Below the pieces are notes generated by a model. It saw nothing but the letters and a program-made list of their open reading frames with translations, did no database searches and was not told where the DNA came from. Positions 12,871 to 60,800 of a stretch of DNA of 64,000 nucleotides are shown here, piece by piece (position 1 is the stretch's first letter; each line of letters opens with the position of its first letter). The stretch is from Naegleria gruberi. Lineage: Eukaryota. The stretch lies in the NCBI GenBank assembly GCA_000004985.1, contig GG738882.1, one strand, 5' to 3'. A program made the translations under genes and the position numbers.

Positions 12871-13617
<747 letters not shown>

Positions 13618-13915
13618 AATAAATTGAACTATTTGTAAAATCAGTAACAAGTTAATCCTTTAGCTCCATAATTTTGTACTTCACTCATGTTTGCAAAAAT
13701 GGTTGCATTGAGGAATCTTCAAATGCTTTGACGATATTGATGGAAAGTTACTCGATAATAAACAGAATCATTAAAAATAAGTAATAAACTATTTCAGGCG
13801 TTTCGATAATAAAAATAGAAAGCAAAAATTTCAATCACCAATGAAATAGCCTTAATTCCTCTATATAGAGGTACTAACTCTCGTGTCATTAAAAATGAAA
13901 TAATTTAAAATGACA

Positions 13916-13986
13916 GGGGGCGAGGGGGAATCGAACCCCCGGCCACAGCTTTGGAGGCTGCGATGTTACCATTACACCACCGCCCC
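13916..13986 (-). tRNA. tRNA-Trp (anticodon CCA), 71 nt
   Basis: The minus strand reads GGGGCGGTGGTGTAATGGTAACATCGCAGCCTCCAAAGCTGTGGCCGGGGGTTCGATTCCCCCTCGCCCCC. It folds into a cloverleaf: acceptor GGGGCGG/TCGCCCC, D-arm GTGT-AATGGTA-ACAT, anticodon stem GCAGC/GCTGT with loop CUCCAAA (U33, anticodon CCA, A37), and T-arm GGGGG-TTCGATT-CCCCC. Confidence 0.85.
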
Positions 13987-14154
13987 TGTACATTAAATAA
14001 TGAAAATAAAATTGCTAGTATGATGTAAGCATGACTCACTAGTAGCAAGAAAACTTTATAATTTGAAATAACGAGTTTATTAAATTACGGCAGTAATTGA
14101 GAATGTTTTGAAGAGTAAGTATTTTTCTTTTGATTAGCATGTGAATTCAATCTT

Positions 14155-14919
14155 TCAATTCATTTCTCTTGCTTCCTTTCTAATTATTTCACTTTCATTC
14201 TTTAATAATTCTCCTACAAATTCAAGTGAAGATTCATCTTTTTTAACAGCTTGTAAAACTATTTCTCTGTCGTTTCTTAAATTTTCAGAAGCATACTGAA
14301 GTGCTGATCCATGTTGTTTGACAGCTGTCAAGACAATTTCTCTATCATTTTGAAGTTCTTCTGAAGCATTCTTAAGAGTATCACCATGTTGTTTTACAGA
14401 TGTCAATACAATTTCTCTGTCGTTTGTTAATTCTTTTGAAGCAAAGTGAATTTCATATCCATGATGTTGGACAGCTGTCAACATTATTTCTCTGTCATTT
14501 CTCAATTCCTCAGATGCATATTGAACTGCATATCCATCCCGTCTTATAGCTGTCAAGATAATCTCTCTATCATTTCTCAATGCATGATCAGTGACAAATT
14601 TAAGTGCATGAGCATGTGATTTGACAGCATGTAGAACTATCTCTCTATCACTTTTAAACTGTTCAGGAAGAAATTTGAGTGAAAGTCCTTCGTTCTTGAC
14701 AATTGCCAATGCTACTTCTCTATCGTTACGTAATTCCTCAGAGGCACTTTCAAGTACTCTATATCCGCAGACTTCAGCAATCCTTTTGACAACTGGCTTG
14801 TAGTTCCATAATTTTAACCTATCGGCAGTCTCTACCAATTGCTCCTCGTCATCACATTGTAAAAGATTTTGAATTATATCATCGTTGGTGGTGTCAATTT
14901 CTGTCTCTTGTCTATTCAT
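14155..14919 (-). CDS. DUF4116-like repeat protein (254 aa), about seven tandem ~27-aa repeats
   Basis: The recurring unit is LRNDREIVLTAVKQHGxALQYASEEL (also ELRNDREVALAIVKNEGLSLKFLPEQFKSDREIVLHAVKSHAHALKFVTDHALRNDREIIL...). This 'NDREIVL.AVKQ.G.AL.YASEEL' periodicity is characteristic of the DUF4116 repeat family. Confidence 0.65.
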   Translation of the reverse strand: MNRQETEIDTTNDDIIQNLLQCDDEEQLVETADRLKLWNYKPVVKRIAEVCGYRVLESASEELRNDREVALAIVKNEGLSLKFLPEQFKSDREIVLHAVKSHAHALKFVTDHALRNDREIILTAIRRDGYAVQYASEELRNDREIMLTAVQHHGYEIHFASKELTNDREIVLTSVKQHGDTLKNASEELQNDREIVLTAVKQHGSALQYASENLRNDREIVLQAVKKDESSLEFVGELLKNESEIIRKEAREMN

Positions 14920-15247
14920 TTTTTTTTTAATTACTAATACTAAGCAACAACTCGATTTTAAGAGTTTAAATCGAAAGAGTTTGCAGAGTTTCGAATTGTT
15001 AGAGTAGAATTTCTAAAGACAGACATGGGTATTCGTGGTGAAATTGATAATGTTAAATCTTTACACACGATGTTACTATTTTAATCCGCGGCTAAATGGA
15101 TAAGAGGTAACAAGGTAAGGATAAGAACATAAGATGTAACCTTGTGATTTTTTATTGGTGATTGTTGGAAAAATCCAATTTACAATAACGAATATAATTA
15201 CCAAAAGGTAGCTCTACCCATTGTAGTTTTTCATTAATTAATGTACA

Positions 15248-15318
15248 GGGGCGGTGGTGTAATGGTAACATCGCAGCCTCCAAAGCTGTGGCCGGGGGTT
15301 CGATTCCCCCTCGCCCCC
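15248..15318 (+). tRNA. tRNA-Trp (anticodon CCA), second copy, identical to 13916..13986 but on the opposite strand
   Basis: The 71-nt sequence and cloverleaf are the same as the first copy. About 45 nt of 3' flank is also duplicated (CTGTCATTTTAAATTATTTCATTTTTA...TTAATGACAC). Confidence 0.85.
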
Positions 15319-15464
15319 TGTCATTTTAAATTATTTCATTTTTATTTAAATAATTTTTTTTAATGACACTGAAATAGTTCATTACTACTCTATTAAGGCA
15401 ATTTCATTAGTGATTGAATCATTTTGCTTTCTAATAATCTTGGTGTATTGCAATAGACGATGGT

Positions 15465-17228
15465 TTATTTCCTTGACAAATTATTTGCTGATTTTCCGTT
15501 TTGATTTCCATTATTATTAGCTGCCTTCTTTTCTCTTTCCTTAATAACCTTGTCAATCTTCATCTTTCTCTGGAATTGAACACCAAGTTTAAATCTTTGT
15601 AAAGTATCCAACATGACAACTGCAATTTCATTTTGTAAAGGTTCAAATAAATCATCAGGAAGTTGATCATTCATTTTCTTATCTGGATTGGTGACTAATT
15701 GATCAGAGTCAACTGAAAAGAGTGTGAATTCTTGTAAAAGAGCTTCAACTTGATCGGCAAATCTCTTACTCACATTCACTGAGTTTTTACCATCCAATCT
15801 CAAAAAGTCAACCAAAATTTCATTAGCCAATTCAAATCTCTTATTACAAACAATCTTGTACTCCTCCTCAGTGACATTCTTAATCTTTTTCTTCTTTTTG
15901 AGTGATGACTTGTTATCAGTATCATTAAATGAAAGAGCTGGATTAGTTTGAGTCTTTTTCTGAGAATTATGAGTGGTGGTACTGTGACTTCCACTGGTAA
16001 TTGAGTTTTGTTTCGTTTGATTATCACCAGAGGACACACTCGAGATGGCATCAGTGTCATTTCCAGAAGTGACACTCTTGGCAGCTCCATGATCATCTGT
16101 TTCACTTGTAGAGCTAGTGTCTGTAAAGAGAATATCTTGCATTTCCCAAATTTGTCTCGAATATTCACGATACAAATTAGTTCTAATCAAAACTTCATAA
16201 TTTTCCAATGATAATTCTTGTTTACAATGTTGCTTGAATAAATCTCTCAATTTTGGATCATTCATCACATCTAAAAGCATGACAGCTTTGGCCTTCTTTA
16301 ATCTTTCTCTATTCAAAGCTTCCTTATTAAGAGCTGCCACGAATAGGAAAATCATGACAGGTAGCACAATAATAAATGCAATTATTGTCACTGAAGAAAT
16401 GATAATTGTATAAATTCCCATCCAATTATCTTCAGTATCTGACAAGTAAGATGACATGTCTTCAATGATGGCAATCTTTTTTTCAAACATTTCTTTTAAA
16501 CCTTCATATTCTTCTCCTTCAATAATTGCAATAGCTGTCCCAGTTGAGTTGACATCAATAATCTGTTTCTCCAAAATTTTCAGTTTCGAATGAGCATCCA
16601 TTAGTTCACTAATCACAACATTTTTATCATAATCATGATTAGCAAAATCCTCTACAGGAATAATATTAAAAATCTCATTCAGCATACTATCAATCCAATC
16701 CTGATGTGCCTCTAAATGATTATCCAAATTATTATTCGAATGAGCACTTTGATTATTCAAAAGTTTCGTCAAGCCATCACTCGGATGCACAATAAACGAA
16801 TCCTGATCGAAAATACTCCTATCACTCATATTCAAATAAGCCTTCAAATGCAACCCACTCGTAATCAACTGCTGAATAACCAACACATCTTTCGTCGTCT
16901 TGTATACGAAATTATCCACCTGCGAACGTAATACGAAAGTTTGTGGAAAGATCACTACCAACGCAACCAACAATAACACACTCACCACAATCCCACAAAC
17001 TGACAATAACTTGACCATTGAAATTCGATAGGATTTTTTCTTCTTCATTAGAAAACAACAACAACATGAAGGAAGGACGAGATAGAAACCACGACCATTT
17101 CGACCACTTTTAGAATTGTCGTTGTTGGTTGTGGAAGAGTTGGCTGTTCCTCCTTGAACAGTGTGTTTTTCTTTGGGAAGGGAGAGGAATTGGTGAGAGG
17201 TGTCAGCTGTTGGTAATTGATTTGACAT
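15465..17228 (-). CDS. receptor-like protein: TM - ~230-aa extracytoplasmic domain - TM - split RGS domain (587 aa, single exon)
   Basis: TM1 is LLSVCGIVVSVLLLVALVVIF. TM2 is IYTIIISSVTIIAFIIVLPVMIFLFVAAL. The RGS N-terminal box is LRDLFKQHCKQELSLENYEVLIRTNLY. An S/T/N-rich insertion of ~90 aa follows. The RGS core is FELANEILVDFLRLDGKNSVNVSKRFADQVEALLQ and the C-terminal box is LQNEIAVVMLDTLQRFKLGVQF. Confidence 0.75.
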   Translation of the reverse strand: MSNQLPTADTSHQFLSLPKEKHTVQGGTANSSTTNNDNSKSGRNGRGFYLVLPSCCCCFLMKKKKSYRISMVKLLSVCGIVVSVLLLVALVVIFPQTFVLRSQVDNFVYKTTKDVLVIQQLITSGLHLKAYLNMSDRSIFDQDSFIVHPSDGLTKLLNNQSAHSNNNLDNHLEAHQDWIDSMLNEIFNIIPVEDFANHDYDKNVVISELMDAHSKLKILEKQIIDVNSTGTAIAIIEGEEYEGLKEMFEKKIAIIEDMSSYLSDTEDNWMGIYTIIISSVTIIAFIIVLPVMIFLFVAALNKEALNRERLKKAKAVMLLDVMNDPKLRDLFKQHCKQELSLENYEVLIRTNLYREYSRQIWEMQDILFTDTSSTSETDDHGAAKSVTSGNDTDAISSVSSGDNQTKQNSITSGSHSTTTHNSQKKTQTNPALSFNDTDNKSSLKKKKKIKNVTEEEYKIVCNKRFELANEILVDFLRLDGKNSVNVSKRFADQVEALLQEFTLFSVDSDQLVTNPDKKMNDQLPDDLFEPLQNEIAVVMLDTLQRFKLGVQFQRKMKIDKVIKEREKKAANNNGNQNGKSANNLSRK

Positions 17229-36630: not shown

Positions 36631-39600
36631 TTATTCCAAATTGGCTTGCTTCATCAACTTATTCTTGTAGTTAACAATTCCTTGATAAGTTTCGAATTGT
36701 TGAGTGAAGATAAATCTAGAAAAGGTGTCACTCAAATTGAAAAGAACTTGATTTTGGAGAGTTTCAATTGATTTTCTGATTGACTCTTTCAATTCTTGTG
36801 AAATTTGATTCTTTTTGCCAAAATTCTTTCCATTTTCCAATTCAATATCTTTAGTTTTAGAATCTGTAGAGTCCAGGTCCTGTACAAGATTAACGAATGA
36901 TTTCTTACAATCTGATGGGATGTTAACTTCCTTCAAAGAACCGTTCTTGACATAGGTTTCATAAATATGCAGAATAATTGTTTGAGCTTGGTGAGAATCG
37001 TCCAAGTTTTCAAAAACATTATTCTGATTTTTGATTTCCAAATAAAGTTGTAAATTTTCAAGGGAATACTCCTTTTCGCAGAACCATTCGAACAATTGCA
37101 AACCCTCAGCATGTTCTAATAATTTCACTAACTCTTCTCCTTCATCTTGTTTAGTTTCGTATGAGCTCTTTCTAATCTTGTGAATAAATAGCACAATTAA
37201 AGAATAACCTCCAAATACAAACAAGTAACTGAACAAGTAGAGAATGTCAAAAAGTAATGAAATAGAATCATTCAATAGTAACATTTTCAAAGAGTCTGTC
37301 TTTCGATAAGTCAATCCTGATAGGCCAATAATTTGTGAAATAACCAAAAAGGTAAAACACATTACAAACAAACACATCTCAGCTCTGAAATATAATGGAG
37401 AATCCAATCTAATAATATTTTCATAAACCCCTTTCAGTGGAATCTTTACAAGTTTCTTTGCAGTTGTAAAATTATCGAATTTCTGCAGTTTTTCCAAACT
37501 TTTACCAGTAAGTAAATCATTCAAAGAGAAATTGAGCTTCCTTGTTTCATTATCTGTTGTTTGTTCTTGACCTTGTTTGATAATTTCGTTTTCCTTTCTC
37601 TTGGAGAGGAAGACCATAATCCAATCCAATGCAATCATACAACAAATAATGAATCCTAGAAGGAGAATCGAACAAGTAAACGAAATGGAAACAATATGAG
37701 TATACGTAGTGCCTGTAATGGCTCCAGTACGAATGAGAATAACCCACAGAGTCCAATACAATACATTCAATGTTACAAATACTGACATTACAATAAGCAT
37801 TACCTTGGTTGAAAGGAATAGTTTTGTAACCTTGAGAAGTGTTTCACTCTTTGGTTCTTTAGAATTAAACCTCAACCATATTTGATGATGAAAATATTTC
37901 AATACTTGGAATCTTAAAACTTGATACAAGTAGGAAAAGATTGCAGTGAGTGTAATGGTGTTTACAATAATTGTAAAAATATTCGAAATGATATTAGCAG
38001 CCAAATCTCCATTTTGTAATTGAAGAACTGTAGATTGACTATTTTCAAAATCATTTTGATTTCCAAGAACACTATTAGCATATCTCAGTAGAATACCTCT
38101 CTGAGTTATAAGTAAAAGTGCACATTCAATGATAAGAGCTGCCATTCCAATAAAAGGAGTTACAAATCTGCTAGTGACAGGTTGAGATTTTCTGAAAACA
38201 ATCAACAGTACTAAAGTAATCGATGATAGAATCAAGAATAAAGAGCCGAATGAAATTTGAGCAATGTAGAGTGAAGAAACTTGTTTAAGGAATTCTGCAT
38301 TTGTTGGAGTTTCTTGTTCTACAAATGCTGCAAAGAGAGTTGTGTGATTACATTGACAAGTTAATTGCTTGGTTTGATTGTTGAAATAATAAACTGAACA
38401 TCCTTCTCTTTCCCATTTGTGATTTGTTTCGTTCCAAAATTGGCAGCTTAATGAAGTGTTAGAAACTGAAGAGTTTGTTTCTAATGTAAAGCTAATGTAG
38501 ATTGGTTCAATTAAGTTGGACAATGATAACGGAGAACCAGATTTGTATAATGTGAATTCTTTTGAATTAGTCAATTGTGTTGAATTACCATTTGTGTACA
38601 AATTCTCATCAAAGGTTATGAGAGCCAATCCAATTTCCTTATAGTATCCATCGTATTTGGCAAGAATATAATCTGTATCTATTGTAACTCCATTAAATTC
38701 CTGAACAACATTGTCAATAGATGAAGTTTTCAAAAAAGTGGAAGTTGTAATGTTGATCAAGTCGGATATGTATGAATTCTGATCGAGAGATCCTGAAAAT
38801 ACTCTTGATGCTTGTTGGTTAATAATAATGGAAGATAATTGGGAACAAAGAGTTGTCACATTAACAAATCCGTTCAATAAAATATTGCTGGCAGATGACA
38901 AGGTATTTTTCAAATCGCTTTCTGACATTCTTTGTTTAGAGAGATAACCATTGGAAGACTTATCACTTTTGATTATTTCATTTACCGAGCCCAAGAAATT
39001 CTCCAATTTGGAACTAAGGATAGAAGCTACTTTGTTTTCTAATGAATTTGTTGTTGTCAACTGGTTAATAACTTCCAAAGTAAGTGAAGGATTTTCAACA
39101 TGGAGGTTAAGACTGTTCACATATTCGTATATTATTTCATTTGATTGTTTTCTTGATTGATCGTATGGAAGGATAACCGACAATCTCTCATCGTGTCTTA
39201 TTCTATACTGTAAGGTTTCTGCATCTTCAGAGTTGAGAAGAACTTGGACTGAACCAAAATATTTTGAATATTGATTGGAGAGACTGTCTCTTGCAATGAC
39301 ATATATTTGAACAGTGGCAGACTCAGTTTTGTTATTAGACAAATAAGGAAGGTAGCATGAACAAGTAAGATTCTTTGAAAACTCATTCATTCGAATAACA
39401 ATGTTTTCCCCATGTACATTCGAATATTCAAAACCAAATGCAAACTCTAACGGGGAAAGCTCGTATGGTACAATCCAGTTGTTCAAATCTTCTTCAAAGT
39501 TGAAAAGCGTTGAAAGGGCCATTCCTGTTTGAGGTAAAATATTAACATTAGAATGTAATCTTTCAGGAGGAGACAATATTGGAATGCTTTCTAAAAATTC

Positions 39601-42600
39601 AACTGTTTCAGAGAGATTTTGAGAATTATAAAATTTCACACTCAGTGTCAAGTTTCCTTGACCGTTATTATGAAAACTTCCTTTTAGAGAAAGAACTGGA
39701 CTAAACGAAAGTTTGTACAAACCATTAGTAGATCTTCCAATAAAACTGGCAAGTATATACTCTGGTGGTTGCGAATAAATTTTTTGATTTCCATCACTAA
39801 TCTGCCATGAATATTTCAAATTCGTCCAAGTACAATTTGTACAATTATTAGAAAGTCTAATGGATTCAAAATCATTAATATATTCTAAATATGCACCAAT
39901 GATGTTCATATCTATAACTTGGTTCAATCCTTTGACAACAGCTTTTGGTTTACCAATTATTTCTATTAATCTCTTTTCCTTTACAATTTTTTCCTTACAA
40001 TTCGCTCCAAAATAATCTGGTTTACAAGCACACGTGTTAGGATAAATGCAACTACCTTGTCCTGAACAAACTAAAGATGAATTTGTATAAATCACTCCAA
40101 AGCAATGGAAGAGGTCACAATTAATTCCAGTAAATCCTTCATTACATATACAGGTATCGGTGATATTGCAGTTTCCATGCCCAGAACAAACATTAGAATT
40201 ATTGAAAAGGACTCCATTACAATAAAATGTTTCACAATCCAATCCATCATATCCAATCTTACATGTACAGGAATTAGGAGAAGTACAAGTGCCAAATCCA
40301 GAACAAACACTTGTAGAATTATGCAATTGAGCATTACAATAAAAAGTCTCACAATTATCCCCGAAATAACCATCCTTACATTGACAAATATTTGGCAAAG
40401 TGCAATTTCCGTTTCCTGAACAAACCATTGAAGAATTGTGATTCACATTATTGCAGGAATAGTTTTCACATTCGTTTCCGCTATATCCAGAACTACAGAT
40501 GCAATTATTAGGAGAAGAGCAATAGCCATGTGATGAGCATACTTTGGAGGAATTATTCAATAGACCACTACAATTATAACTTTCACAATTATTACCAAAA
40601 TATCCATTCAAACAAGAGCAATTGTTTGGAGCAGTACAGTTTCCATTTCTAGAACAAACATCTGTGGAATTGTGCATCTTGTCACCACAAAAGTACGTTT
40701 CACAATTATTTCCATAATATCCTGTTTGACATGAAGAACAAATATTTGGAGATTGACATACTCCTCGTCCACTACAAACCTTTGTTGAATTGTTTTGAAT
40801 TCCAAAACAATCCCATACACTGCAATCTGATGAATAGTAGTTAGAAGAGCAAGAGCATTGATTTCCAGCAATACATACACCATGCCCTGAACAAACATTA
40901 GTTGAGTTGGTTGCATTAATTCCAAAACAAATTGGAACCTGACATAACGCACCTGTATATAGTGGAGAACACTGACAGTTGTCTATTCCTACACACGTAC
41001 CATGTCCAGAACAAACAATTGATGAGTTAGATAAGATTCCATTACATTTAGGATATTGACATCTCTCTCCTCCATATCCATTAACACATGAACACTGATT
41101 TACACCAATACATGTCCCTTTACCACTACAAACGTTAGATTCCCCTTGAAGAATACCATAACATTTGGGTTTCTCACAGTTTACGCCTCCCCACGAGCTG
41201 CTATCAGTGCATTGGCAAGTGTTAGGAGACTGACATGTACCTCTGCTATTACAAACAGTTCCATCTGTAGAAATAATGTTATTACATTTTGGAAATTGAC
41301 ATAGGTTACCTCCCCAATTATTTTGATCGTTACAATTGCAATTTTCAATGGAACTACATATTCCTCTTGAGTTACAAACAAGCGGATCACCCTTAAAATA
41401 AGATCCACATTTAGGATTTTCACAAAATTGACCTGAATAATTTGGATCGCAAATACAAACATTTGGGGCCGTACAGACACCATTTCTATTACAAACATTT
41501 GCGTCGCTGGCTGCTATACTATTACATTTTGGAAATTGGCAGAAGACTCCAGTATAATTTGTATTGCATGCACATGAACCCACACCAACACATGTTCCAT
41601 TTGCACTACAAACTTTGGGATCAGTTGACAGTATGTTGTCACACTTTGGATATTGACAATCTGATCCTCCCCAATTGTTTGGTACATTACATGTGCAAGA
41701 ATCTGGTGCTGAGCAAACACCTCTACTATTACATACACCAGCATTACCTTGTAAAACTCCATTACATTTTGGTTTTTCACAATTTTGACCTCCCCATGCT
41801 GCTGGACTTGTACACTGACACGAGTCAACTGCTGAACAAAGACCTCTTCCATTACAAACATTGGATTCTCCCTGAAGAATTCCAGAACATTTTGGTTTTT
41901 CACAATTAGCTCCTCCCCAACTTGTTGGTTCATCACATTGGCACTGATTGTTTCCAATACATTTGCCTCTACCTGAGCAAACTGTTGCAAAGTTAATACT
42001 CTCAATACCATTACAAAAGCTTGTAAAACACTGTGTGCCATTACTGTTCAGGTTGTAACCATTATCGCAAGTTGGCATTAAAACACGAATCTTATTCGTA
42101 CCTCTCTCTGCAAATATAATTTGTCCAGTAGTTTCATTCACAAACAAACCAGCAGGAAGTGAAAGAGGACTCAAATGTGAAATTGACCCATCATCTGCAA
42201 GGGCTTGTATTCCATTACCAGCAATGGTTGAAATGATTCCATTCTTCACTCTTCTAATTCTATTGTTTTCGTGATCTGATATATAAATTACTTCATCTTG
42301 AGTAACATAGACAAATACTGGATCTTGCAGCATGGAAGATTTTGCAGCAACATTATCTGGTCCAAATCCTAAGGTTCCATTTCCTGCAACAGTTGAAATC
42401 TTTCCGTCTGGTTGAATCATTCTTATTCGATGATTCTTCTTATCGACAATGTAGATCTTATCATTTCTAACGAAAACACCATGGGGTTCATTTAACTGAG
42501 CTGTACTTGCTTGAATTCCATCTCCATTATAATTAGCCGTTCCAGTACCTGCAATAGTGGTAACAGTTCCTGACTCGACCTTTTTAACTTTGTGATTATA

Positions 42601-43176
42601 AAAGTCAGCAATATAATATAAGCCAGTGTAAGGTACAAAGATAGCTGGTGGATGGTCTAGTTGAGTTACTCCTGTGGCTCCTATAGCATCTCCACAACCA
42701 GGAACCCCAACACTTGTTGCAATGATATTAGAACTCACCATACGAATTTTACAGTTATATTGATCTGCAATATAAATGATATTGTCCATAACAAAGACAC
42801 CATATGGATAGTATAGTTTGGCAGAGGTAGCTAACTGTCCATCTCCTGTAGAACCTTGTTGACCAACCTTGCCAGCAATAATGGTAACATCACCATTAGC
42901 ACTTCTTTTCTGGACAATATTATTGTACTGATCCACAAAGTAAATCTCATTGTTGTACATGTGCAGGCCACCAGGTTTTTGTAAATTACTAACGAGAGTT
43001 TGGATTGTATATTTGATAGGCGATTCGGCTTGTTTAGAATATCCACCCCACAAGAACAAAATCACCAGAACAATTATTGGCAGGCATCTGTTTGGAAGAG
43101 GTGTCATACTATTTTTTTTGTTGAGATTCGTTTTGTTTATGCACTTCACCACTTGGACTGTTAAGTCCATTCTCAT
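36631..43176 (-). CDS. adhesion-GPCR-like giant protein (2181 aa, single exon): signal/anchor, NHL repeats, ~20 EGF-like Cys repeats, spacer, GPS-like motif, 7TM, C-terminal RGS domain
   Basis: The NHL repeats (~plus 42070..43000) include YFVDQYNNIVQKR, IYIADQYNCKIRMV, YYIADFYNHKVKKV, IYIVDKKNHRIRMI, IYISDHENNRIRRV. The EGF-like units (~40150..42070) follow the pattern PKC.G.L.....VC.SRG.C..P..C.C....W.G..C. The GPS-like motif (~38330..38450) is CQFWNETNHKWEREGCSVYYFNNQTKQLTCQCNHTTLFAAF. Seven helices lie at ~37180..38290. The RGS domain (~36690..37130) starts with LQLFEWFCEKEYSLENLQLYLEI and ends with LSDTFSRFIFTQQFETY. Confidence 0.8.
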   Translation of the reverse strand: MRMDLTVQVVKCINKTNLNKKNSMTPLPNRCLPIIVLVILFLWGGYSKQAESPIKYTIQTLVSNLQKPGGLHMYNNEIYFVDQYNNIVQKRSANGDVTIIAGKVGQQGSTGDGQLATSAKLYYPYGVFVMDNIIYIADQYNCKIRMVSSNIIATSVGVPGCGDAIGATGVTQLDHPPAIFVPYTGLYYIADFYNHKVKKVESGTVTTIAGTGTANYNGDGIQASTAQLNEPHGVFVRNDKIYIVDKKNHRIRMIQPDGKISTVAGNGTLGFGPDNVAAKSSMLQDPVFVYVTQDEVIYISDHENNRIRRVKNGIISTIAGNGIQALADDGSISHLSPLSLPAGLFVNETTGQIIFAERGTNKIRVLMPTCDNGYNLNSNGTQCFTSFCNGIESINFATVCSGRGKCIGNNQCQCDEPTSWGGANCEKPKCSGILQGESNVCNGRGLCSAVDSCQCTSPAAWGGQNCEKPKCNGVLQGNAGVCNSRGVCSAPDSCTCNVPNNWGGSDCQYPKCDNILSTDPKVCSANGTCVGVGSCACNTNYTGVFCQFPKCNSIAASDANVCNRNGVCTAPNVCICDPNYSGQFCENPKCGSYFKGDPLVCNSRGICSSIENCNCNDQNNWGGNLCQFPKCNNIISTDGTVCNSRGTCQSPNTCQCTDSSSWGGVNCEKPKCYGILQGESNVCSGKGTCIGVNQCSCVNGYGGERCQYPKCNGILSNSSIVCSGHGTCVGIDNCQCSPLYTGALCQVPICFGINATNSTNVCSGHGVCIAGNQCSCSSNYYSSDCSVWDCFGIQNNSTKVCSGRGVCQSPNICSSCQTGYYGNNCETYFCGDKMHNSTDVCSRNGNCTAPNNCSCLNGYFGNNCESYNCSGLLNNSSKVCSSHGYCSSPNNCICSSGYSGNECENYSCNNVNHNSSMVCSGNGNCTLPNICQCKDGYFGDNCETFYCNAQLHNSTSVCSGFGTCTSPNSCTCKIGYDGLDCETFYCNGVLFNNSNVCSGHGNCNITDTCICNEGFTGINCDLFHCFGVIYTNSSLVCSGQGSCIYPNTCACKPDYFGANCKEKIVKEKRLIEIIGKPKAVVKGLNQVIDMNIIGAYLEYINDFESIRLSNNCTNCTWTNLKYSWQISDGNQKIYSQPPEYILASFIGRSTNGLYKLSFSPVLSLKGSFHNNGQGNLTLSVKFYNSQNLSETVEFLESIPILSPPERLHSNVNILPQTGMALSTLFNFEEDLNNWIVPYELSPLEFAFGFEYSNVHGENIVIRMNEFSKNLTCSCYLPYLSNNKTESATVQIYVIARDSLSNQYSKYFGSVQVLLNSEDAETLQYRIRHDERLSVILPYDQSRKQSNEIIYEYVNSLNLHVENPSLTLEVINQLTTTNSLENKVASILSSKLENFLGSVNEIIKSDKSSNGYLSKQRMSESDLKNTLSSASNILLNGFVNVTTLCSQLSSIIINQQASRVFSGSLDQNSYISDLINITTSTFLKTSSIDNVVQEFNGVTIDTDYILAKYDGYYKEIGLALITFDENLYTNGNSTQLTNSKEFTLYKSGSPLSLSNLIEPIYISFTLETNSSVSNTSLSCQFWNETNHKWEREGCSVYYFNNQTKQLTCQCNHTTLFAAFVEQETPTNAEFLKQVSSLYIAQISFGSLFLILSSITLVLLIVFRKSQPVTSRFVTPFIGMAALIIECALLLITQRGILLRYANSVLGNQNDFENSQSTVLQLQNGDLAANIISNIFTIIVNTITLTAIFSYLYQVLRFQVLKYFHHQIWLRFNSKEPKSETLLKVTKLFLSTKVMLIVMSVFVTLNVLYWTLWVILIRTGAITGTTYTHIVSISFTCSILLLGFIICCMIALDWIMVFLSKRKENEIIKQGQEQTTDNETRKLNFSLNDLLTGKSLEKLQKFDNFTTAKKLVKIPLKGVYENIIRLDSPLYFRAEMCLFVMCFTFLVISQIIGLSGLTYRKTDSLKMLLLNDSISLLFDILYLFSYLFVFGGYSLIVLFIHKIRKSSYETKQDEGEELVKLLEHAEGLQLFEWFCEKEYSLENLQLYLEIKNQNNVFENLDDSHQAQTIILHIYETYVKNGSLKEVNIPSDCKKSFVNLVQDLDSTDSKTKDIELENGKNFGKKNQISQELKESIRKSIETLQNQVLFNLSDTFSRFIFTQQFETYQGIVNYKNKLMKQANLE

Positions 43177-53032: not shown

Positions 53033-56000
53033 GTGAAAGGCATTACAATTCCATCCACAAACAAAATGTCCAACAATATCCTTGTTAATTTGCTTGTGTT
53101 AACTTTTTGCTTGTGTTTTGTTGCGTTTGCCAGCTTTTCCAATGCAGCTGCTGTGAAATATAAGATTACAACGGTACTTAGTTCTCTCGAAACACCGAAA
53201 TCTATTCACGTACTAACAAGTGGTGATATTTATTTTGGTGAATATAACACAATATCAAGTAGAGTTAAAAAGTGAGTATTTGATCTTTAAAACTTGACTT
53301 ACTTTCGAAGACTGTCTTCAGGTTCAACAACAACAATTGTTGGTGGTGGAACAACAACCACTGATGGAGCTTCTCTTACAGACGCATTATTGAGTAAGTT
53401 TTTTTAGATTGGTCAACCAAACTAATTCTTCACAATAGCTGGATTATATTTTTGCTTTGACGAAACCAACAACAAAATGTACATTAGTGACGAAGGCTTA
53501 CATAAAATAAGACTGGCCGATCTTGGAAATAATAATATTAACACATTAACCAGTAATTCCTACAGTCCAACATTTATAACATTAGATAGTGTAAACAGTA
53601 GAGTGCTATTCACTGATCCTGAAGATTATAGTGTTCGTTATTTCAGCTTATCATCTCCATCAACCGTAACACCTGTCAGTGCTTCGACAAATACTGTTTC
53701 TGGTATCACAGTTTCGACAGCTGGAGAATATTATTTCGCAGATGGATCCAGCAAAGTCATAAAACTTACTTTACCAAATACGAAAAGTAATTATGTAACT
53801 GGATTGAGTAATCCTCAAGGATTATTTTGGAGATCTAATGAACTGTTCATTGTAGATGCTGATAGTACAACTCCTAAAATTAAGAAGTATGATGGAACAA
53901 CTCTTACAGATATTGCTGGAGGTGGATCTTCTGGTTGTGCGAATGATATTGAGGCAACAAGTTGCAAATTATCAAGCTCCATCTCAGGTATTTACGTCAC
54001 CAACAAGAATGAAATTTACATCACTGAAGCCAGAAGTTCACCTAATGGAAATATCAAGAAAATTTATCCATATTGTGATAGTGGTTATCAATTATCTTCT
54101 GATGGAAAAACATGTGATCCTATTTGTTATTCTAAAGTAGGAGANNNNNNNNNNNNNNNNNNNNNNNNNNNNNNNNNNNNNNNNNNNNNNNNNNGGCTTA
54201 TCTGGTCCAACAGGAATATTCTACACAACGTATAATGAAATATTCATTTCTGATTCTGGAAATAAGAAGATCAAGAAATATGAAGGGGGATCAACCTCAG
54301 ATTTTGCTGGTGCCAGTGGAGCTGGGACTACTTGTGCAGAAGACTCAGAAGCTCTCTCTTGCTATTTTTCAACTAGTATTTATGGTATTTTCGTTACTGA
54401 CAAGAATGAAGTTTATGTAACTGAAGGAATATCCGACACTGGAACTGTTAAGAAAATTTATCCATACTGTGATAGTGGTTATCAATTAACATCTGATGGA
54501 AGATCATGTGTTCCTATTTGTTATTCCAAAGTAGGGGATGCTGCCTGTGGAGGACCAACTCAAGGAGCTTGTAGTGCTCCTGATACTTGTCAATGTACCA
54601 CCAATTATTTTGGAAACGAATGTGGCTCACCAAAGTGTTATGGAAAAACATCCAATGCCTGTAATAATCAAGGTACCTGCACTGCAGTCGATACTTGTGT
54701 TTGCAATGCTAACTATTTTGGAAATGAGTGCACTTCACCAAAGTGTTATGGAAAAACCTCCAACGCTTGTAACAATCAAGGTACTTGTACTGCAGTCGAC
54801 ACTTGTGTTTGTAATGCCAACTATTATGGAAACGAATGTACTTCTCCAAAGTGTTATGGAAAAACATCCAATGCCTGTAACAATCAAGGTACTTGCACTG
54901 CAGTCGACACTTGTGTTTGCAATGCTAATTACTACGGAAATGAGTGCACTTCCCCAAAGTGTTATGGAAAAACATCCACAACAGCTTGTAACTTGAAAGG
55001 TACCTGCACAGCAGTTGACTCTTGTCAATGTAATACCAATTACTATGGAAATGAATGTACAGTCACAACTTGTGATGGCAAGTATTCCAATACTTCAGTT
55101 GCTTGTAACAACCAAGGAACTTGTGCTGATTATAATACTTGCAATTGTAATACTAATTATGGAGGTTCTTATTGCAGTCTTCCAAAATGTGGTGGAATTC
55201 TGTCAGATAATCCATCCGTCTGTTCAGCAAATGGCACCTGTGCTGGTGTTAATAATTGTCAATGTAATTCTCTCTATACAGGATCCAATTGTGAAACTCC
55301 TATTTGTTATGGAATTCAAGCCACTCAAACATCAACTGTGTGCTCTGGACAAGGTATTTGTGTGGCTGGTGACAAGTGTGTTTGTAAAGATTATTCCAAA
55401 TATACTGGACTAAAGTGTGATTCTCCAATTTGTAACTCAAAACCTTCAACAGATCCAAATGTTTGTAACTCTAGAGGTACATGTACTGCACCAAATACTT
55501 GCCAATGTACTGATACTAATCTATTTGGTGGAAATGATTGTGAACTATTCAAGTGTAATGGTACACTCTCCAATCAAGGATCAGTTTGTAGTGGAAGAGG
55601 TACATGTTTAGCCAATAATATTTGTCAATGTACTGATACTAGCTCTTGGGGAGGAAATTTTTGTTCAATTCCTAAATGTAATGGAATTCTTGCCAATGAC
55701 ACTAGAAAATGTTCATCTAGAGGTAATTGTATTTCACCAAACACTTGCCAATGTTATGAGAGTAATAATTATGGTGGATCAGATTGTGAAATTTTCAAAT
55801 GTGGTGGAATCCTTTCTACTAATACTTCTAAAGTTTGTTCTGGAAAGGGTACTTGTAAATCATTGAATAACTGTGAATGTTTACCTAATTATGGTGGTGC
55901 TAATTGTGAACTTGTTAAATGTTTTGGCATTTTACAAAACGAAAGTTCAGTATGTAGTGGAAAAGGTTCATGTAAGAATGTTGATACATGTCAATGTGAT

Positions 56001-57656
56001 AATGGTTATGGAGGTTCTAATTGTAATCTTATTAGATGTTTTGGTGTCTATACTAACCAAACTAATTTGATTTGTAATAATGGAAATGGTACTTGTATTG
56101 CTCCTGACACTTGTTCATGCAGTACTGGGTGGACAGGATCAAAGTGTGATGTTGCAATTTGTAATGGAAAACTTTCTAATGACACACGTGTCTGTTCATC
56201 AAAAGGTCAATGTGTGGGTCCAAACAATTGTAAATGTTCCACCAATTACTATGGAACAAACTGTGAAAAGACAACTTGTAATTCTGTTGCTTCAGATGAT
56301 AGCACAGTTTGTTTTGGTCATGGTTCTTGCCTTTCGTATAATAATTGTAATTGCTCAACTGGATATGGACCTTCCACAACTTGTGAATTCCCAATTTGTT
56401 ATGGATTATTGGCAAATGACAGCCGTGTCTGTAATGATACTGACAAGTTTTGTTTTGCACCAAATGATTGTAAGCCAAAGAATCCAACTTGTTATGGAAT
56501 TGAAAAGGCAGACAGTAGATCATGTTCTGGACACGGAATTTGTTTATCAACTGATAATTGTCGATGTGATTCTAGCTACTTTGGTGAACAATGTCAATAT
56601 TTCAAATGTTATGGTGTTGAATTCAACTCATCATCAGTCTGTAGCTCACACGGTTCATGTGACAGTGTAAATAATTGTAATTGTCGAGATGGTTACGGAG
56701 GAAACAATTGTGAACTTGTTAAATGTAGTGGAATTTTACAAAATTCAAGCATGGTTTGTAGTGGAAGAGGTAAATGTGTTGATGTTAACACATGTAATTG
56801 TGACAGTGGATATTATGGCTCTGATTGTCAATTGACCACCTGTTTTGGTATTGAACAAGCAAGCTCACAAGTTTGTAACAATAGAAATGGTACTTGTCTT
56901 TCGTTTGATAATTGTAACTGTCTTGATGAAAGCAAGTGGTTCGGATCAGCATGTAATACGACGTATTGTTATGGGAAAACTTCATTGGATTCTAATGCCT
57001 GTAACTCTCAAGGTAATTGTGTCAATTTTAACACATGCCAATGTAAACAAAATTATGCTGGCAATCAATGTCACTTGAGATACCTTTCTCAATCATTCAC
57101 CTTATCATTCAATAGCACTACTGATTTTATTGGAGAAATTTCCACCATACTCACCCTCAGCATTCAAGATTCCACATTCCTCGATTTTTATGCCAACAAA
57201 TCTGTCGACATTAAGTTGGAATTCCTTCTTGACAATCAAGCTCTCACTTCAGCAATATCTTCCCAACAATCACTATATCCAAGCATGTCTTTCTCTCTCC
57301 CATCCTCTCTCTCCAAAGGATCACTCACAGCAAAGGCAACTCTCTACAATTCCACAACACCAATCTCATTCCAAGTTGCAACCGAAAGTGCCTTAATACT
57401 CCAACAACGAAACACTCCAATTGCCTCAAACTCTATTCCATCTCGTGCTGGAGAACCATCAATTCAAGGAAATAGTAATGCAGGAGTTATTGCTGCAGCT
57501 GTGGTCGTTCCAATCGTTTCAATTGCAGCCATTGGAGGTGGTGTTGCTGTGGTCATTACTGTTGTGGTCTTGTTGAAGAAGAAGGCAGCTGCTACTTTGG
57601 CCAAGGATATTGCAACAGCTGCTCACACTGATGTTGAATTGGCAGGTAATCTTTAA
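53033..57656 (+). CDS. type I membrane protein: signal peptide, NHL repeats, ~28 EGF-like Cys repeats, TM, short tail; exons ~53033..53271, ~53311..53393, ~53439..54144, [50-N gap], 54195..57656
   Basis: The signal peptide is NILVNLLVLTFCLCFVAFASFSNA. The 39-nt and 45-nt introns give ...SSRVK|K|LSSGSTTTIVGGGTTTTDGASLTDALL|T|GLYFCFDETNNKMYISDEGL. NHL-like units recur (IYITEARSS, VYVTEGISD). The EGF-like pattern C.G....S..C.SRG.C..P..C.C....YGG..C runs from ~54540 to ~57060. The TM is GVIAAAVVVPIVSIAAIGGGVAVVITVVVLL and the tail ends AGNL-TAA. The frame is continuous from 54195. The track begins its ORF at a TTG at 54993 only because no start-like codon occurs in the repeats. Confidence 0.7.
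54145..54194. other. assembly gap (50 N) inside the NHL/EGF gene
   Basis: A run of n characters. The coding frame differs on the two sides, which is expected for an arbitrary-length gap. Confidence 0.99.
54628..55059 (+). repeat. four tandem 108-bp (36-codon) repeats encoding the EGF-like module SPKCYGKTSNACNNQGTCTAVDTCVCNANY(F/Y)GNECT
   Basis: Copies start at ~54628, 54736, 54844 and 54952. The first three are ~90-95% identical at the nucleotide level, with almost all differences at synonymous third positions. The fourth copy is diverged. Confidence 0.85.
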
Positions 57657-57805
57657 AAGTATTATTAAAATTATTTTTGTTCTAAGGACCTTTACTTTTC
57701 CTGAATAACTTGTTTGGTTGTACATGACATTTGTTGGAGATGAATGCATGAAAACAATTATTTCAACATGTTTGACTGTATCTTCTTTAAACTCTCTGCC
57801 AGAAC

Positions 57806-60800
57806 NNNNNNNNNNNNNNNNNNNNNNNNNNNNNNNNNNNNNNNNNNNNNNNNNNNNNNNNNNNNNNNNNNNNNNNNNNNNNNNNNNNNNNNNNNNNNNN
57901 NNNNNNNNNNNNNNNNNNNNNNNNNNNNNNNNNNNNNNNNNNNNNNNNNNNNNNNNNNNNNNNNNNNNNNNNNNNNNNNNNNNNNNNNNNNNNNNNNNNN
58001 NNNNNNNNNNNNNNNNNNNNNNNNNNNNNNNNNNNNNNNNNNNNNNNNNNNNNNNNNNNNNNNNNNNNNNNNNNNNNNNNNNNNNNNNNNNNNNNNNNNN
58101 NNNNNNNNNNNNNNNNNNNNNNNNNNNNNNNNNNNNNNNNNNNNNNNNNNNNNNNNNNNNNNNNNNNNNNNNNNNNNNNNNNNNNNNNNNNNNNNNNNNN
58201 NNNNNNNNNNNNNNNNNNNNNNNNNNNNNNNNNNNNNNNNNNNNNNNNNNNNNNNNNNNNNNNNNNNNNNNNNNNNNNNNNNNNNNNNNNNNNNNNNNNN
58301 NNNNNNNNNNNNNNNNNNNNNNNNNNNNNNNNNNNNNNNNNNNNNNNNNNNNNNNNNNNNNNNNNNNNNNNNNNNNNNNNNNNNNNNNNNNNNNNNNNNN
58401 NNNNNNNNNNNNNNNNNNNNNNNNNNNNNNNNNNNNNNNNNNNNNNNNNNNNNNNNNNNNNNNNNNNNNNNNNNNNNNNNNNNNNNNNNNNNNNNNNNNN
58501 NNNNNNNNNNNNNNNNNNNNNNNNNNNNNNNNNNNNNNNNNNNNNNNNNNNNNNNNNNNNNNNNNNNNNNNNNNNNNNNNNNNNNNNNNNNNNNNNNNNN
58601 NNNNNNNNNNNNNNNNNNNNNNNNNNNNNNNNNNNNNNNNNNNNNNNNNNNNNNNNNNNNNNNNNNNNNNNNNNNNNNNNNNNNNNNNNNNNNNNNNNNN
58701 NNNNNNNNNNNNNNNNNNNNNNNNNNNNNNNNNNNNNNNNNNNNNNNNNNNNNNNNNNNNNNNNNNNNNNNNNNNNNNNNNNNNNNNNNNNNNNNNNNNN
58801 NNNNNNNNNNNNNNNNNNNNNNNNNNNNNNNNNNNNNNNNNNNNNNNNNNNNNNNNNNNNNNNNNNNNNNNNNNNNNNNNNNNNNNNNNNNNNNNNNNNN
58901 NNNNNNNNNNNNNNNNNNNNNNNNNNNNNNNNNNNNNNNNNNNNNNNNNNNNNNNNNNNNNNNNNNNNNNNNNNNNNNNNNNNNNNNNNNNNNNNNNNNN
59001 NNNNNNNNNNNNNNNNNNNNNNNNNNNNNNNNNNNNNNNNNNNNNNNNNNNNNNNNNNNNNNNNNNNNNNNNNNNNNNNNNNNNNNNNNNNNNNNNNNNN
59101 NNNNNNNNNNNNNNNNNNNNNNNNNNNNNNNNNNNNNNNNNNNNNNNNNNNNNNNNNNNNNNNNNNNNNNNNNNNNNNNNNNNNNNNNNNNNNNNNNNNN
59201 NNNNNNNNNNNNNNNNNNNNNNNNNNNNNNNNNNNNNNNNNNNNNNNNNNNNNNNNNNNNNNNNNNNNNNNNNNNNNNNNNNNNNNNNNNNNNNNNNNNN
59301 NNNNNNNNNNNNNNNNNNNNNNNNNNNNNNNNNNNNNNNNNNNNNNNNNNNNNNNNNNNNNNNNNNNNNNNNNNNNNNNNNNNNNNNNNNNNNNNNNNNN
59401 NNNNNNNNNNNNNNNNNNNNNNNNNNNNNNNNNNNNNNNNNNNNNNNNNNNNNNNNNNNNNNNNNNNNNNNNNNNNNNNNNNNNNNNNNNNNNNNNNNNN
59501 NNNNNNNNNNNNNNNNNNNNNNNNNNNNNNNNNNNNNNNNNNNNNNNNNNNNNNNNNNNNNNNNNNNNNNNNNNNNNNNNNNNNNNNNNNNNNNNNNNNN
59601 NNNNNNNNNNNNNNNNNNNNNNNNNNNNNNNNNNNNNNNNNNNNNNNNNNNNNNNNNNNNNNNNNNNNNNNNNNNNNNNNNNNNNNNNNNNNNNNNNNNN
59701 NNNNNNNNNNNNNNNNNNNNNNNNNNNNNNNNNNNNNNNNNNNNNNNNNNNNNNNNNNNNNNNNNNNNNNNNNNNNNNNNNNNNNNNNNNNNNNNNNNNN
59801 NNNNNNNNNNNNNNNNNNNNNNNNNNNNNNNNNNNNNNNNNNNNNNNNNNNNNNNNNNNNNNNNNNNNNNNNNNNNNNNNNNNNNNNNNNNNNNNNNNNN
59901 NNNNNNNNNNNNNNNNNNNNNNNNNNNNNNNNNNNNNNNNNNNNNNNNNNNNNNNNNNNNNNNNNNNNNNNNNNNNNNNNNNNNNNNNNNNNNNNNNNNN
60001 NNNNNNNNNNNNNNNNNNNNNNNNNNNNNNNNNNNNNNNNNNNNNNNNNNNNNNNNNNNNNNNNNNNNNNNNNNNNNNNNNNNNNNNNNNNNNNNNNNNN
60101 NNNNNNNNNNNNNNNNNNNNNNNNNNNNNNNNNNNNNNNNNNNNNNNNNNNNNNNNNNNNNNNNNNNNNNNNNNNNNNNNNNNNNNNNNNNNNNNNNNNN
60201 NNNNNNNNNNNNNNNNNNNNNNNNNNNNNNNNNNNNNNNNNNNNNNNNNNNNNNNNNNNNNNNNNNNNNNNNNNNNNNNNNNNNNNNNNNNNNNNNNNNN
60301 NNNNNNNNNNNNNNNNNNNNNNNNNNNNNNNNNNNNNNNNNNNNNNNNNNNNNNNNNNNNNNNNNNNNNNNNNNNNNNNNNNNNNNNNNNNNNNNNNNNN
60401 NNNNNNNNNNNNNNNNNNNNNNNNNNNNNNNNNNNNNNNNNNNNNNNNNNNNNNNNNNNNNNNNNNNNNNNNNNNNNNNNNNNNNNNNNNNNNNNNNNNN
60501 NNNNNNNNNNNNNNNNNNNNNNNNNNNNNNNNNNNNNNNNNNNNNNNNNNNNNNNNNNNNNNNNNNNNNNNNNNNNNNNNNNNNNNNNNNNNNNNNNNNN
60601 NNNNNNNNNNNNNNNNNNNNNNNNNNNNNNNNNNNNNNNNNNNNNNNNNNNNNNNNNNNNNNNNNNNNNNNNNNNNNNNNNNNNNNNNNNNNNNNNNNNN
60701 NNNNNNNNNNNNNNNNNNNNNNNNNNNNNNNNNNNNNNNNNNNNNNNNNNNNNNNNNNNNNNNNNNNNNNNNNNNNNNNNNNNNNNNNNNNNNNNNNNNN

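What the first reader, a model, noticed from the sequence alone, without database searches (positions are those of the whole stretch)
13874..15360. Identical tRNA-Trp(CCA) genes in inverted orientation bracketing a DUF4116-like repeat gene
Two 71-nt tRNA genes are 100% identical. About 45 nt of 3' flank is also duplicated, differing only by a ~20-nt T-rich insertion. The copies are on opposite strands 1.26 kb apart. The 765-bp repeat-protein gene lies exactly between them. Such an inverted duplication could form a cruciform or snap-back and could mediate inversion of the enclosed gene. tRNA genes are also insertion landmarks for retroelements in dictyostelids, but no element remnant is visible here. 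Pairing of tRNA genes is a known dictyostelid habit. The precise bracketing of a protein gene is noteworthy.
Basis: partly seen in the sequence, partly recalled or inferred. Interest (0 to 1): 0.5.

Follow-up and report, generated by a model that had tools for sequence, protein, structure and literature searches.

The report
Inverted tRNA-Trp gene pair, Naegleria
Two identical tryptophan tRNA genes point away from each other on either side of a small repeat-protein gene in the amoeboflagellate Naegleria gruberi; this looks like an ordinary local duplication of a ~0.2-kb tRNA gene unit in a genome crowded with tRNA genes, not a switch or a mobile element.

Summary
ARAGORN and Rfam both call two 71-nt tRNA-Trp(CCA) genes, 13916-13986 (-) and 15248-15318 (+). 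They are 100% identical and transcribed away from each other. An intact 254-aa DUF4116 ORF (Pfam E=7e-110) lies between them. The duplicated unit is larger than reported, about 191/206 nt per arm: 20 nt of 5' flank, the tRNA, and 100-115 nt of 3' flank. The 3' flank is interrupted by an 18-nt AT insertion and a replaced block of about 25 nt.

The dictyostelid context is wrong. Two neighbouring proteins are 100% identical to Naegleria gruberi predicted proteins. N. gruberi carries about 924 tDNAs in 41 Mb, with an excess of same-type neighbours.

I found no transposase, reverse transcriptase, target-site duplication or external B box, and the ORF's composition is host-like. None of 12 other DUF4116 loci carries a tRNA. 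The gene's promoter region lies inside the repeat, so an inversion would change nothing obvious. A 1.2-kb spacer makes a cruciform implausible.

Orthologous loci and read support could not be tested.

Verdict: an ordinary DNA-level inverted duplication of a tRNA gene. Low interest.

Side notes: the tRNA has discriminator C73 rather than A73, and the DUF4116 ORF appears to be unannotated.

The parts
13916..13986 (-). Left tRNA-Trp(CCA) gene, 71 nt, no encoded CCA, discriminator C73
   Evidence: ARAGORN. Rfam RF00005 at 57.5 bits with a full cloverleaf. Internal B box GGTTCGATTCC at 13927-13937 with 0 mismatches.
15248..15318 (+). Right tRNA-Trp(CCA) gene, 100% identical to the left copy
   Evidence: B box at 15297-15307.
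13816..14006 (-). Left arm of the duplicated unit. It comprises 20 nt of 5' flank (13987-14006), the tRNA, and about 100 nt of 3' flank. The T4 Pol III terminator reads AAAA on the + strand at 13907-13910.
   Evidence: the repeat finder I1 and I2. Gapped alignment and block identities. Sequence read.
15228..15433 (+). Right arm of the duplicated unit. It comprises 20 nt of 5' flank (15228-15247), the tRNA, and about 115 nt of 3' flank. The T4 terminator is at 15324-15327.
15339..15356 (+). 18-nt AT-only insertion (TTTTTATTTAAATAATTT) present only in the right arm. Its placement is ambiguous by about 6 nt.
   Evidence: Gapped alignment.
13830..13856 (-). Distal conserved 3'-flank block (25/27 identical to 15392-15418), followed by TTTTGCTTTCTA (13816-13827 = 15422-15433)
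   Evidence: There is no other copy in the window and none is expected by chance.
15392..15418 (+). Right-arm copy of the distal conserved 3'-flank block
14155..14919 (-). Intact 254-aa ORF made of 7 DUF4116 repeats (period of 25 aa / 75 nt). GC and codon usage are host-like. It is absent from the protein collection and so apparently unannotated.
   Evidence: ORF. Pfam PF13475 E=7e-110. 75-nt period. Best homologues are only 46-55% identical and the exact sequence is not in the collection. Codon usage correlation 0.87 and GC3 0.23, within the range of the window's genes.
14920..15227 (.). Upstream (promoter) region of the DUF4116 gene. It lies wholly inside the inverted repeat and is shared head-to-head with the right tRNA.
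   Evidence: Geometry. No Rfam family reaches its gathering score here.

Best explanation
This is a segment of the Naegleria gruberi nuclear genome. A functional tRNA-Trp(CCA) gene was copied at the DNA level as a unit of about 0.2 kb, running from roughly -20 to +100/115 around the tRNA. The copy landed in inverted orientation in the next intergenic region, about 1.3 kb away, on the other side of a small resident DUF4116 repeat-protein gene. Both copies keep what RNA polymerase III needs: an internal A box, a perfect B box, and a T4 terminator 5 nt after the gene. Both are therefore most likely active, redundant tRNA genes. Purifying selection, and possibly gene conversion between the arms, keeps the tRNA bodies identical. 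The flanks meanwhile have gained an 18-nt AT insertion, a replaced block of about 25 nt and three substitutions. The bracketing of the DUF4116 gene is a by-product of where the copy landed, not a functional unit.

Shown: the tRNA calls, the extent and divergence of the repeat, the organism, and the absence of mobile-element signatures.

Inferred: the DNA-level duplication mechanism (for example repair-associated template switching or an ectopic templated insertion), the activity of both copies, and the lack of function for the arrangement.
For: - **tRNA calls.** Two identical canonical tRNA-Trp(CCA) genes.
- **DNA-level copying.** Homology covers 5' flank as well as 3' flank well beyond the first T4 terminator. 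This rules out retroposition of a Pol III transcript and points to DNA-level copying.
- **Real and not brand new.** Aligned flank blocks are 89/92 identical but interrupted by indels. The duplication is therefore real, because an assembly fold-back would be a perfect palindrome.
- **Organism.** Naegleria gruberi: P0121 and P0123 are 100% identical over 587 and 326 aa.
- **tRNA-rich genome.** N. gruberi has 924 tDNAs in 41 Mb. It has 12 same-isoacceptor pairs within 1 kb against about 2 expected at random, so local tDNA duplication is a known feature of this genome (PMC2888827).
- **No mobile element.** No reverse transcriptase or transposase domain appears in the 27 larger ORFs scanned with Pfam, out of 58 ORFs of at least 100 aa. 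Direct repeats at the arm boundaries do not exceed AT-rich 6-7-mers, which occur in 10-32% of random segment pairs.
- **Resident gene.** The DUF4116 ORF has host-like GC and codon usage.
- **No recurrent association.** None of 12 other DUF4116 loci (cellular, bacterial, viral) has a tRNA.
Against: No second N. gruberi tRNA-Trp locus could be examined. I therefore cannot exclude that the -20..+115 unit is a dispersed, genome-wide repeat, which would point to a dedicated spreading mechanism. No orthologous locus was recoverable, so neither the order of events nor conservation of the arrangement is known. The (-,+) same-type configuration was counted zero times within 1 kb in N. gruberi, so this orientation is not common there. 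The conserved distal 3' block (25/27 + 12/12) beyond a diverged stretch could mean that part of the flank is itself under selection for an unknown reason. The discriminator is C73, not the A73 used by the eukaryotic TrpRS enzymes studied so far. Full function as a Trp acceptor is therefore assumed, not shown.
Confidence: 0.8

Rival explanations
1. Invertible cassette. Homologous recombination between the 117-nt, 99% identical arms flips the 1.2-kb segment that carries the DUF4116 gene, so the population holds both orientations.
For: The arms are inverted and nearly identical over 117 nt. That length is long enough in principle for homologous recombination (general knowledge).
Against: No recombinase or other candidate switch component was found in the window. 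The gene's start codon and all 328 nt upstream of it lie inside the segment, so flipping would not connect or disconnect a promoter. The assembly shows only one orientation. No reads were available.
Confidence: 0.08
2. Functional tDNA bracket. The two Pol III-bound tRNA genes act as paired insulator or barrier elements. They would isolate the DUF4116 gene from the polyubiquitin gene on the left and the RGS-like gene on the right.
For: Geometry only. One tDNA sits in each flanking intergenic region. tDNAs act as barriers in yeasts and mammals (general knowledge).
Against: There is no recurrence. None of 12 other DUF4116 loci has tRNAs. No conservation data exist. With about one tDNA per 44 kb and frequent local duplication in this genome, such a geometry is expected occasionally without any function.
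Confidence: 0.05
3. Mobile element. The segment is a terminal-inverted-repeat or foldback-type element whose ends contain tRNA genes and whose cargo is the DUF4116 gene.
For: Inverted terminal arms of about 200 nt flank a single gene.
Against: There is no target-site duplication above chance and no transposase anywhere in the window. The arm ends are diffuse rather than sharp. The cargo has host-like composition. No related copy was found in the viral or metagenome scans.
Confidence: 0.03
4. Assembly artefact. A chimeric or fold-back join in the draft scaffold created a false inverted copy.
For: The window comes from a gapped draft scaffold, with N runs at 54145-54194, 57806-61766 and 62794-62843.
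Against: The arms differ by an 18-nt indel, a replaced block and three substitutions, and they are embedded in different unique flanks. A fold-back artefact would give a perfect palindrome. The gaps are more than 38 kb away.
Confidence: 0.03

Closest known systems
Same-isoacceptor ('homogeneous') anti-parallel tDNA pairs in eukaryotic genomes (Bermudez-Santana et al. 2010, PMC2888827)
   Same: Two tRNA genes for the same amino acid lie next to each other on opposite strands, produced by local duplication. N. gruberi itself has 12 homogeneous pairs within 1 kb, against about 2 expected.
   Different: This pair is 1262 nt apart by that survey's measure, outside its 1-kb cut-off, and it encloses a protein-coding gene. 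Its (-,+) orientation class was counted zero times in N. gruberi within 1 kb.
Dictyostelium discoideum tRNA gene pairs and tRNA-targeted retroelements (TRE5/TRE3, DGLT-A), with an external B box downstream of tRNA genes (recalled from the literature; the primary paper was not retrievable)
   Same: Identical tRNA genes occur in nearby pairs in an AT-rich, compact protist genome.
   Different: The organism is a heterolobosean, not a dictyostelid. There is no external B box in the 3' flank and no retroelement.
Inverted-repeat-mediated flip-flop inversion (for example the plastid large inverted repeat and the yeast 2-micron circle)
   Same: Two inverted identical sequences flank a unique segment that could be inverted by recombination.
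   Different: The arms here are only about 0.12-0.2 kb. No dedicated recombinase was found, no evidence for two isomers exists, and no functional consequence is expected.
tDNA chromatin barriers or insulators (yeast HMR tRNA-Thr; fission-yeast centromere-flanking tDNAs)
   Same: Pol III-transcribed tRNA genes flank a chromosomal domain.
   Different: There is no evidence of distinct chromatin domains here. The 'domain' is a single 765-bp gene. Function was not tested.

Membership tests
Cytoplasmic elongator tRNA-Trp gene (Rfam RF00005, eukaryotic type) | Canonical cloverleaf that scores above the family threshold | tested here: met
   57.5 bits against a gathering score of 29, model positions 1-71 of 71, for both copies. 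ARAGORN agrees.
Cytoplasmic elongator tRNA-Trp gene (Rfam RF00005, eukaryotic type) | Anticodon CCA | tested here: met
   ARAGORN places anticodon cca at position 33. The loop reads CUCCAAA in the Rfam alignment.
Cytoplasmic elongator tRNA-Trp gene (Rfam RF00005, eukaryotic type) | Pol III control elements: internal A and B boxes, a T-run terminator, and no encoded CCA | tested here: met
   B box GGTTCGATTCC with 0 mismatches in both copies. The A-box region reads TGGTGTAATGG. TTTT lies 5 nt after the 3' end of each copy, and the genes are followed by TGTC rather than CCA.
Cytoplasmic elongator tRNA-Trp gene (Rfam RF00005, eukaryotic type) | Eukaryotic/archaeal Trp identity set: G1-C72 and discriminator A73 | tested here: not met
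   G1-C72 is present, but the discriminator is C. A73 is the major determinant in human, plant and archaeal systems, and G73 in bacteria (PMC1538984, PMC9976931). Whether the Naegleria TrpRS accepts C73 is unknown.
DUF4116 repeat proteins (Pfam PF13475) | Tandem DUF4116 repeats above the Pfam gathering score | tested here: met
   E=7e-110, 358.9 bits against a cut-off of 24.9, 7 repeats. 544 homologues at E<=1e-10.
Dictyostelid tRNA gene pair / tRNA-targeted retroelement landscape | Host is a dictyostelid | tested here: not met
   Neighbouring proteins are 100% identical to Naegleria gruberi predicted proteins.
Dictyostelid tRNA gene pair / tRNA-targeted retroelement landscape | External B box downstream of the tRNA, and TRE/DGLT-type elements nearby | tested here: not met
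   Within 2 mismatches, the only B-box matches in 13700-15500 are the two internal boxes. No reverse transcriptase or integrase domains appear in the window ORFs scanned.
TIR-bounded DNA transposon / foldback element | Terminal inverted repeats | tested here: met
   Inverted arms of 191/206 nt, although the ends are diffuse.
TIR-bounded DNA transposon / foldback element | Target-site duplication flanking the element | tested here: not met
   The longest shared direct words at the boundaries are 6-7 nt and AT-rich. Words of that length are shared by 10-32% of random segment pairs.
TIR-bounded DNA transposon / foldback element | Transposase gene or multiple dispersed copies | tested here: inconclusive
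   There is no transposase in the window and no second copy of the flank block in the window. The rest of the N. gruberi genome could not be searched.
Invertible DNA switch (phase-variation type) | A promoter or coding join that changes on inversion, plus a site-specific recombinase | tested here: not met
   The promoter region and the whole ORF lie inside the segment. No recombinase domain was found.
tDNA insulator / barrier | Barrier activity on neighbouring chromatin or gene expression | not testable with these tools
   This needs ChIP or expression data from N. gruberi.

The most novel reading that the evidence does not exclude
The arrangement could be functional in one of two ways. First, the RGS-like gene, the DUF4116 gene and the left tRNA all lie on the minus strand. 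Read-through transcription from the RGS-like gene would produce an RNA whose two tRNA-containing arms pair into a stem of about 117 bp. That stem could feed an RNAi pathway and yield tRNA-Trp-derived small RNAs. Second, the two Pol III units could act as a paired insulator, or as a recombination-competent bracket, around the DUF4116 gene. A separate possibility is that the C73 discriminator marks a lineage-specific change in tryptophan tRNA identity in Naegleria.
Probability: 0.05. Interest if true: 0.45.

Novelty: new member of a known kind. Interest (0 to 1): 0.12.

Why it matters
It matters little for biology at large. It is one more example of how tRNA genes multiply locally in a protist genome that holds an unusually large number of them (about 924 in 41 Mb). 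The duplicated unit is defined at the nucleotide level: about 20 nt upstream to about 100-115 nt downstream of the tRNA. That definition gives a concrete query for asking how tRNA genes spread in Naegleria. Two by-products may be of practical use. One is an apparently unannotated DUF4116 gene in the reference genome. The other is a tRNA-Trp with a C73 discriminator, which would be relevant to tRNA identity rules if it holds for all Naegleria tRNA-Trp genes.

Tried and rejected
- **Exact-protein look-ups.** I looked up the DUF4116 ORF, the RGS-like protein, the HlyIII protein and P0121 in the assembly index. None is on record, so no further N. gruberi DNA could be fetched.
- **Orthologous locus via the DUF4116 gene.** The nearest relatives are only 46-55% identical. 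The N. lovaniensis DUF4116 locus (L001) is not syntenic and has no tRNA. P0030 turned out to be bacterial. P0001 and P0002 sit on short contigs without tRNAs.
- **Orthologous locus via neighbours.** The RGS-like protein has no detectable homologue besides itself. HlyIII orthologues at 58% and 43% identity (L003-L005) have different neighbours and no tRNA. The synteny test was therefore impossible.
- **Scans for the tRNA sequence.** The 71-mer and a 28-mer core gave 0 hits in JGI metagenome contigs. The 28-mer gave 0 hits in IMG/VR.
- **Viral origin of the DUF4116 gene.** Relatives exist on IMG/VR contigs at 42-52% identity. They are no closer than cellular hits, none has a tRNA nearby, and the ORF's codon usage is host-like. 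Rejected.
- **Dictyostelium-style external B box in the conserved 3' block.** Rejected.
- **Target-site duplications.** None above chance.
- **Other RNA families in 13700-15600.** Nothing reaches a gathering score besides the tRNAs.
- **Solved structure for the DUF4116 protein.** None.
- **The 14-bp palindrome CCTCTATATAGAGG (13858-13871) in the left arm.** By my own estimate about 8 such palindromes are expected by chance in an AT-rich 64-kb window, so I do not consider it meaningful.
- **Eichinger et al. 2005.** The paper could not be retrieved. The statement about Dictyostelium tRNA pairs therefore rests on memory.
Full report

Yes. ARAGORN finds exactly two tRNA genes in the 64-kb window. 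Both are tRNA-Trp with anticodon CCA, at 13916-13986 on the minus strand and 15248-15318 on the plus strand. Rfam's tRNA model scores each at 57.5 bits (gathering score 29) over all 71 model positions, with a standard cloverleaf. The two 71-mers are identical.

The repeat finder gives inverted arms 13890-14006 / 15228-15344 (117 nt, 99%) and a second block 13830-13856 / 15392-15418 (27 nt, 93%). That 27-mer has no other copy in the window, and none is expected in shuffles.

A gapped alignment refines the picture. Homology starts 20 nt upstream of the tRNA (19/20), with perhaps 12 further weakly similar bases. It runs through the tRNA (71/71) and 20 nt of 3' flank (20/20). An 18-nt AT-only insertion, present only in the right arm (about 15339-15356), then interrupts it. 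Homology resumes for 13 nt (13/13) and is lost over a replaced block of about 25 nt. It resumes again for 27 nt (25/27) and 12 nt (12/12), ending at about 13816 on the left and 15433 on the right.

The enclosed ORF, 14155-14919 on the minus strand, is 254 aa. It is an unambiguous DUF4116 repeat protein (PF13475, E=7e-110, seven repeats) with a 75-nt DNA period. The two tRNAs are transcribed away from each other, so their 5' ends face the enclosed gene.

**2. Where does it come from?**

That is wrong. The gene immediately to the right (587 aa, weak RGS match) and the next one (326 aa, HlyIII/PAQR family) are each 100% identical over their full length to 'predicted protein [Naegleria gruberi]'. 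Both sit on a 381,539-bp scaffold.

The rest of the window fits a compact eukaryotic nuclear genome of 33-34% GC. It holds a three-unit polyubiquitin gene, an ABC transporter split by an intron, RCC1, WD40, ankyrin and F-box proteins, and teneurin-like EGF proteins. It also has three assembly gaps.

**3. Context in that genome.**

A published survey counted 924 tDNAs in the 41-Mb N. gruberi genome. Of these, 16% lie in clusters, defined as neighbours less than 1 kb apart. There were 77 neighbouring pairs against 39 expected at random. Twelve pairs were of the same isoacceptor type (8 parallel, 4 (+,-), 0 (-,+)) against about 2 expected (PMC2888827).

Local duplication of tRNA genes is therefore an established property of this genome. 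The present pair is (-,+) and 1262 nt apart by that survey's measure. It falls just outside the 1-kb cut-off and belongs to an orientation class that is rare in N. gruberi. That makes it a slightly unusual instance, not a new kind of thing.

**4. What produced it?**

The copy includes sequence upstream of the mature 5' end. It also includes about 100 nt beyond the first T4 terminator, which lies 5 nt after the gene in both copies. A Pol III transcript would contain neither, so the copy was made from DNA and not by retroposition.

No mobile-element signature is present. None of the 27 larger ORFs scanned with Pfam has a reverse transcriptase, integrase or transposase domain. The boundaries carry no direct repeats beyond AT-rich 6-7-mers, which 10-32% of random segment pairs also share. 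The repeat ends are diffuse rather than sharp.

An assembly fold-back is excluded, because the arms differ by indels and substitutions and sit in different unique flanks.

The most economical reading is a short inverted DNA duplication. Plausible routes are template switching or an ectopic templated repair event at a tRNA gene. The copy landed in the neighbouring intergenic region. The tRNA body has been held identical by selection, possibly helped by gene conversion, while the flanks drifted: 89/92 in the alignable blocks, plus two larger indel or replacement events. The mechanism itself is inferred, not shown.

**5. Is the bracketing of the DUF4116 gene meaningful?**

I found no evidence that it is.

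- The ORF has the GC content, GC3 and codon preferences of the other genes in the window, so it is a resident gene and not a recent import.
- DUF4116 relatives occur in protists, bacteria and viral contigs at 40-55% identity.
- None of the 12 other DUF4116 loci that I could fetch has a tRNA gene within the DNA held. These were one from N. lovaniensis, one bacterial, two short contigs and eight IMG/VR contigs.
- The gene is not centred between the tRNAs. The spacers are 168 and 328 nt.
- Its whole upstream region lies inside the repeat, so recombination between the arms would flip gene and promoter together with no obvious effect.
- Cruciform extrusion or snap-back needs closely spaced arms. 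With a spacer of about 1.2 kb it is not expected. This rests on general knowledge of inverted-repeat instability and was not tested here.

**6. What could not be tested?**

Neither could be run.

- N. gruberi DNA beyond the window is not retrievable with these tools.
- The DUF4116 gene has no close orthologue in the protein collection.
- The RGS-like neighbour has no detectable homologue.
- The HlyIII orthologues in related organisms sit among different genes and have no tRNAs.
- The tRNA sequence is absent from the metagenome and viral collections.

**7. Comparison with known things.**

The closest known category is the same-isoacceptor, anti-parallel tDNA pair described across eukaryotes. 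This locus is a member of that category with a wider spacer that happens to contain a gene.

It resembles Dictyostelium tRNA pairs only superficially. The organism is different, there is no external B box, and there are no tRNA-targeted retroelements.

It fails the tests for a TIR transposon: no target-site duplication and no transposase. It also fails the tests for an invertible switch: no recombinase, and no promoter or coding join that would change on inversion. Insulator function cannot be tested here.

**8. Things noticed in passing.**

(a) The tRNA's discriminator base is C73. The 5' strand of the acceptor stem starts with four Gs, and the 3' end has five Cs. In the eukaryotic and archaeal systems studied, A73 is the major TrpRS determinant, and in bacteria it is G73. 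Whether all Naegleria tRNA-Trp genes carry C73 is unknown.

(b) The DUF4116 ORF is absent from a collection that contains both of its neighbours from the N. gruberi reference annotation. It appears to be an unannotated gene.

**9. Verdict.**

The best explanation is an ordinary local inverted duplication of a ~0.2-kb tRNA-Trp gene unit in the tRNA-rich N. gruberi genome (confidence about 0.8). Interest is low (0.12). Novelty: a new member of a known kind.

Noticed in passing
window 13916-13986 (-) and 15248-15318 (+): The tRNA-Trp(CCA) has discriminator C73, with G1-C72 and G7.U66 in the acceptor stem. Eukaryotic and archaeal TrpRS systems studied so far use A73 as the major determinant, and bacterial ones use G73. 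Only these two identical copies were seen, so it is unknown whether this holds for all Naegleria tRNA-Trp genes.
   Followed up: partly
window 14155-14919 (-): The intact 254-aa DUF4116 ORF is absent from the 15-billion-protein collection, and its best homologue is only 46-55% identical. Both neighbouring N. gruberi reference proteins are present at 100%. The gene appears to be unannotated in the reference genome.
   Followed up: partly
L008-L015 (IMG/VR contigs): DUF4116 repeat proteins 42-52% identical to the window's ORF are encoded on eight viral-classified contigs. That is the same similarity level as the best cellular hits. No tRNA lies near any of them.
   Followed up: partly
window 12928-13617 (+): A polyubiquitin gene of three head-to-tail units ends with one extra Asn. 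The three protein units are identical, while the DNA units are only 85-86% identical. This is strong purifying selection acting on synonymous-diverged repeats.
   Followed up: no
window 13858-13871: A perfect 14-bp palindrome, CCTCTATATAGAGG, lies in the diverged block of the left arm's 3' flank and is absent from the right arm. By my estimate about 8 such palindromes are expected by chance in an AT-rich 64-kb window.
   Followed up: partly
window 54145-54194, 57806-61766, 62794-62843: These are assembly gaps (runs of N of 50, 3961 and 50 nt). The long ORFs listed across 57718-61784 are artefacts of the N run.
   Followed up: yes
window 36631-43176 (-) and 54993-57656 (+): Two very large ORFs carry teneurin-like EGF repeats. 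The 2181-aa one also has NHL repeats and a C-terminal RGS domain. The 587-aa gene next to the right tRNA also has a weak RGS match, just below the Pfam cut-off.
   Followed up: no
L004 1-40: The contig of a related organism that carries the HlyIII orthologue starts with ...CTCGATCCCCCTCCCCGCA. This loosely resembles the 3' end of a tRNA. ARAGORN calls nothing there, and I could not fit a T-arm to it.
   Followed up: partly
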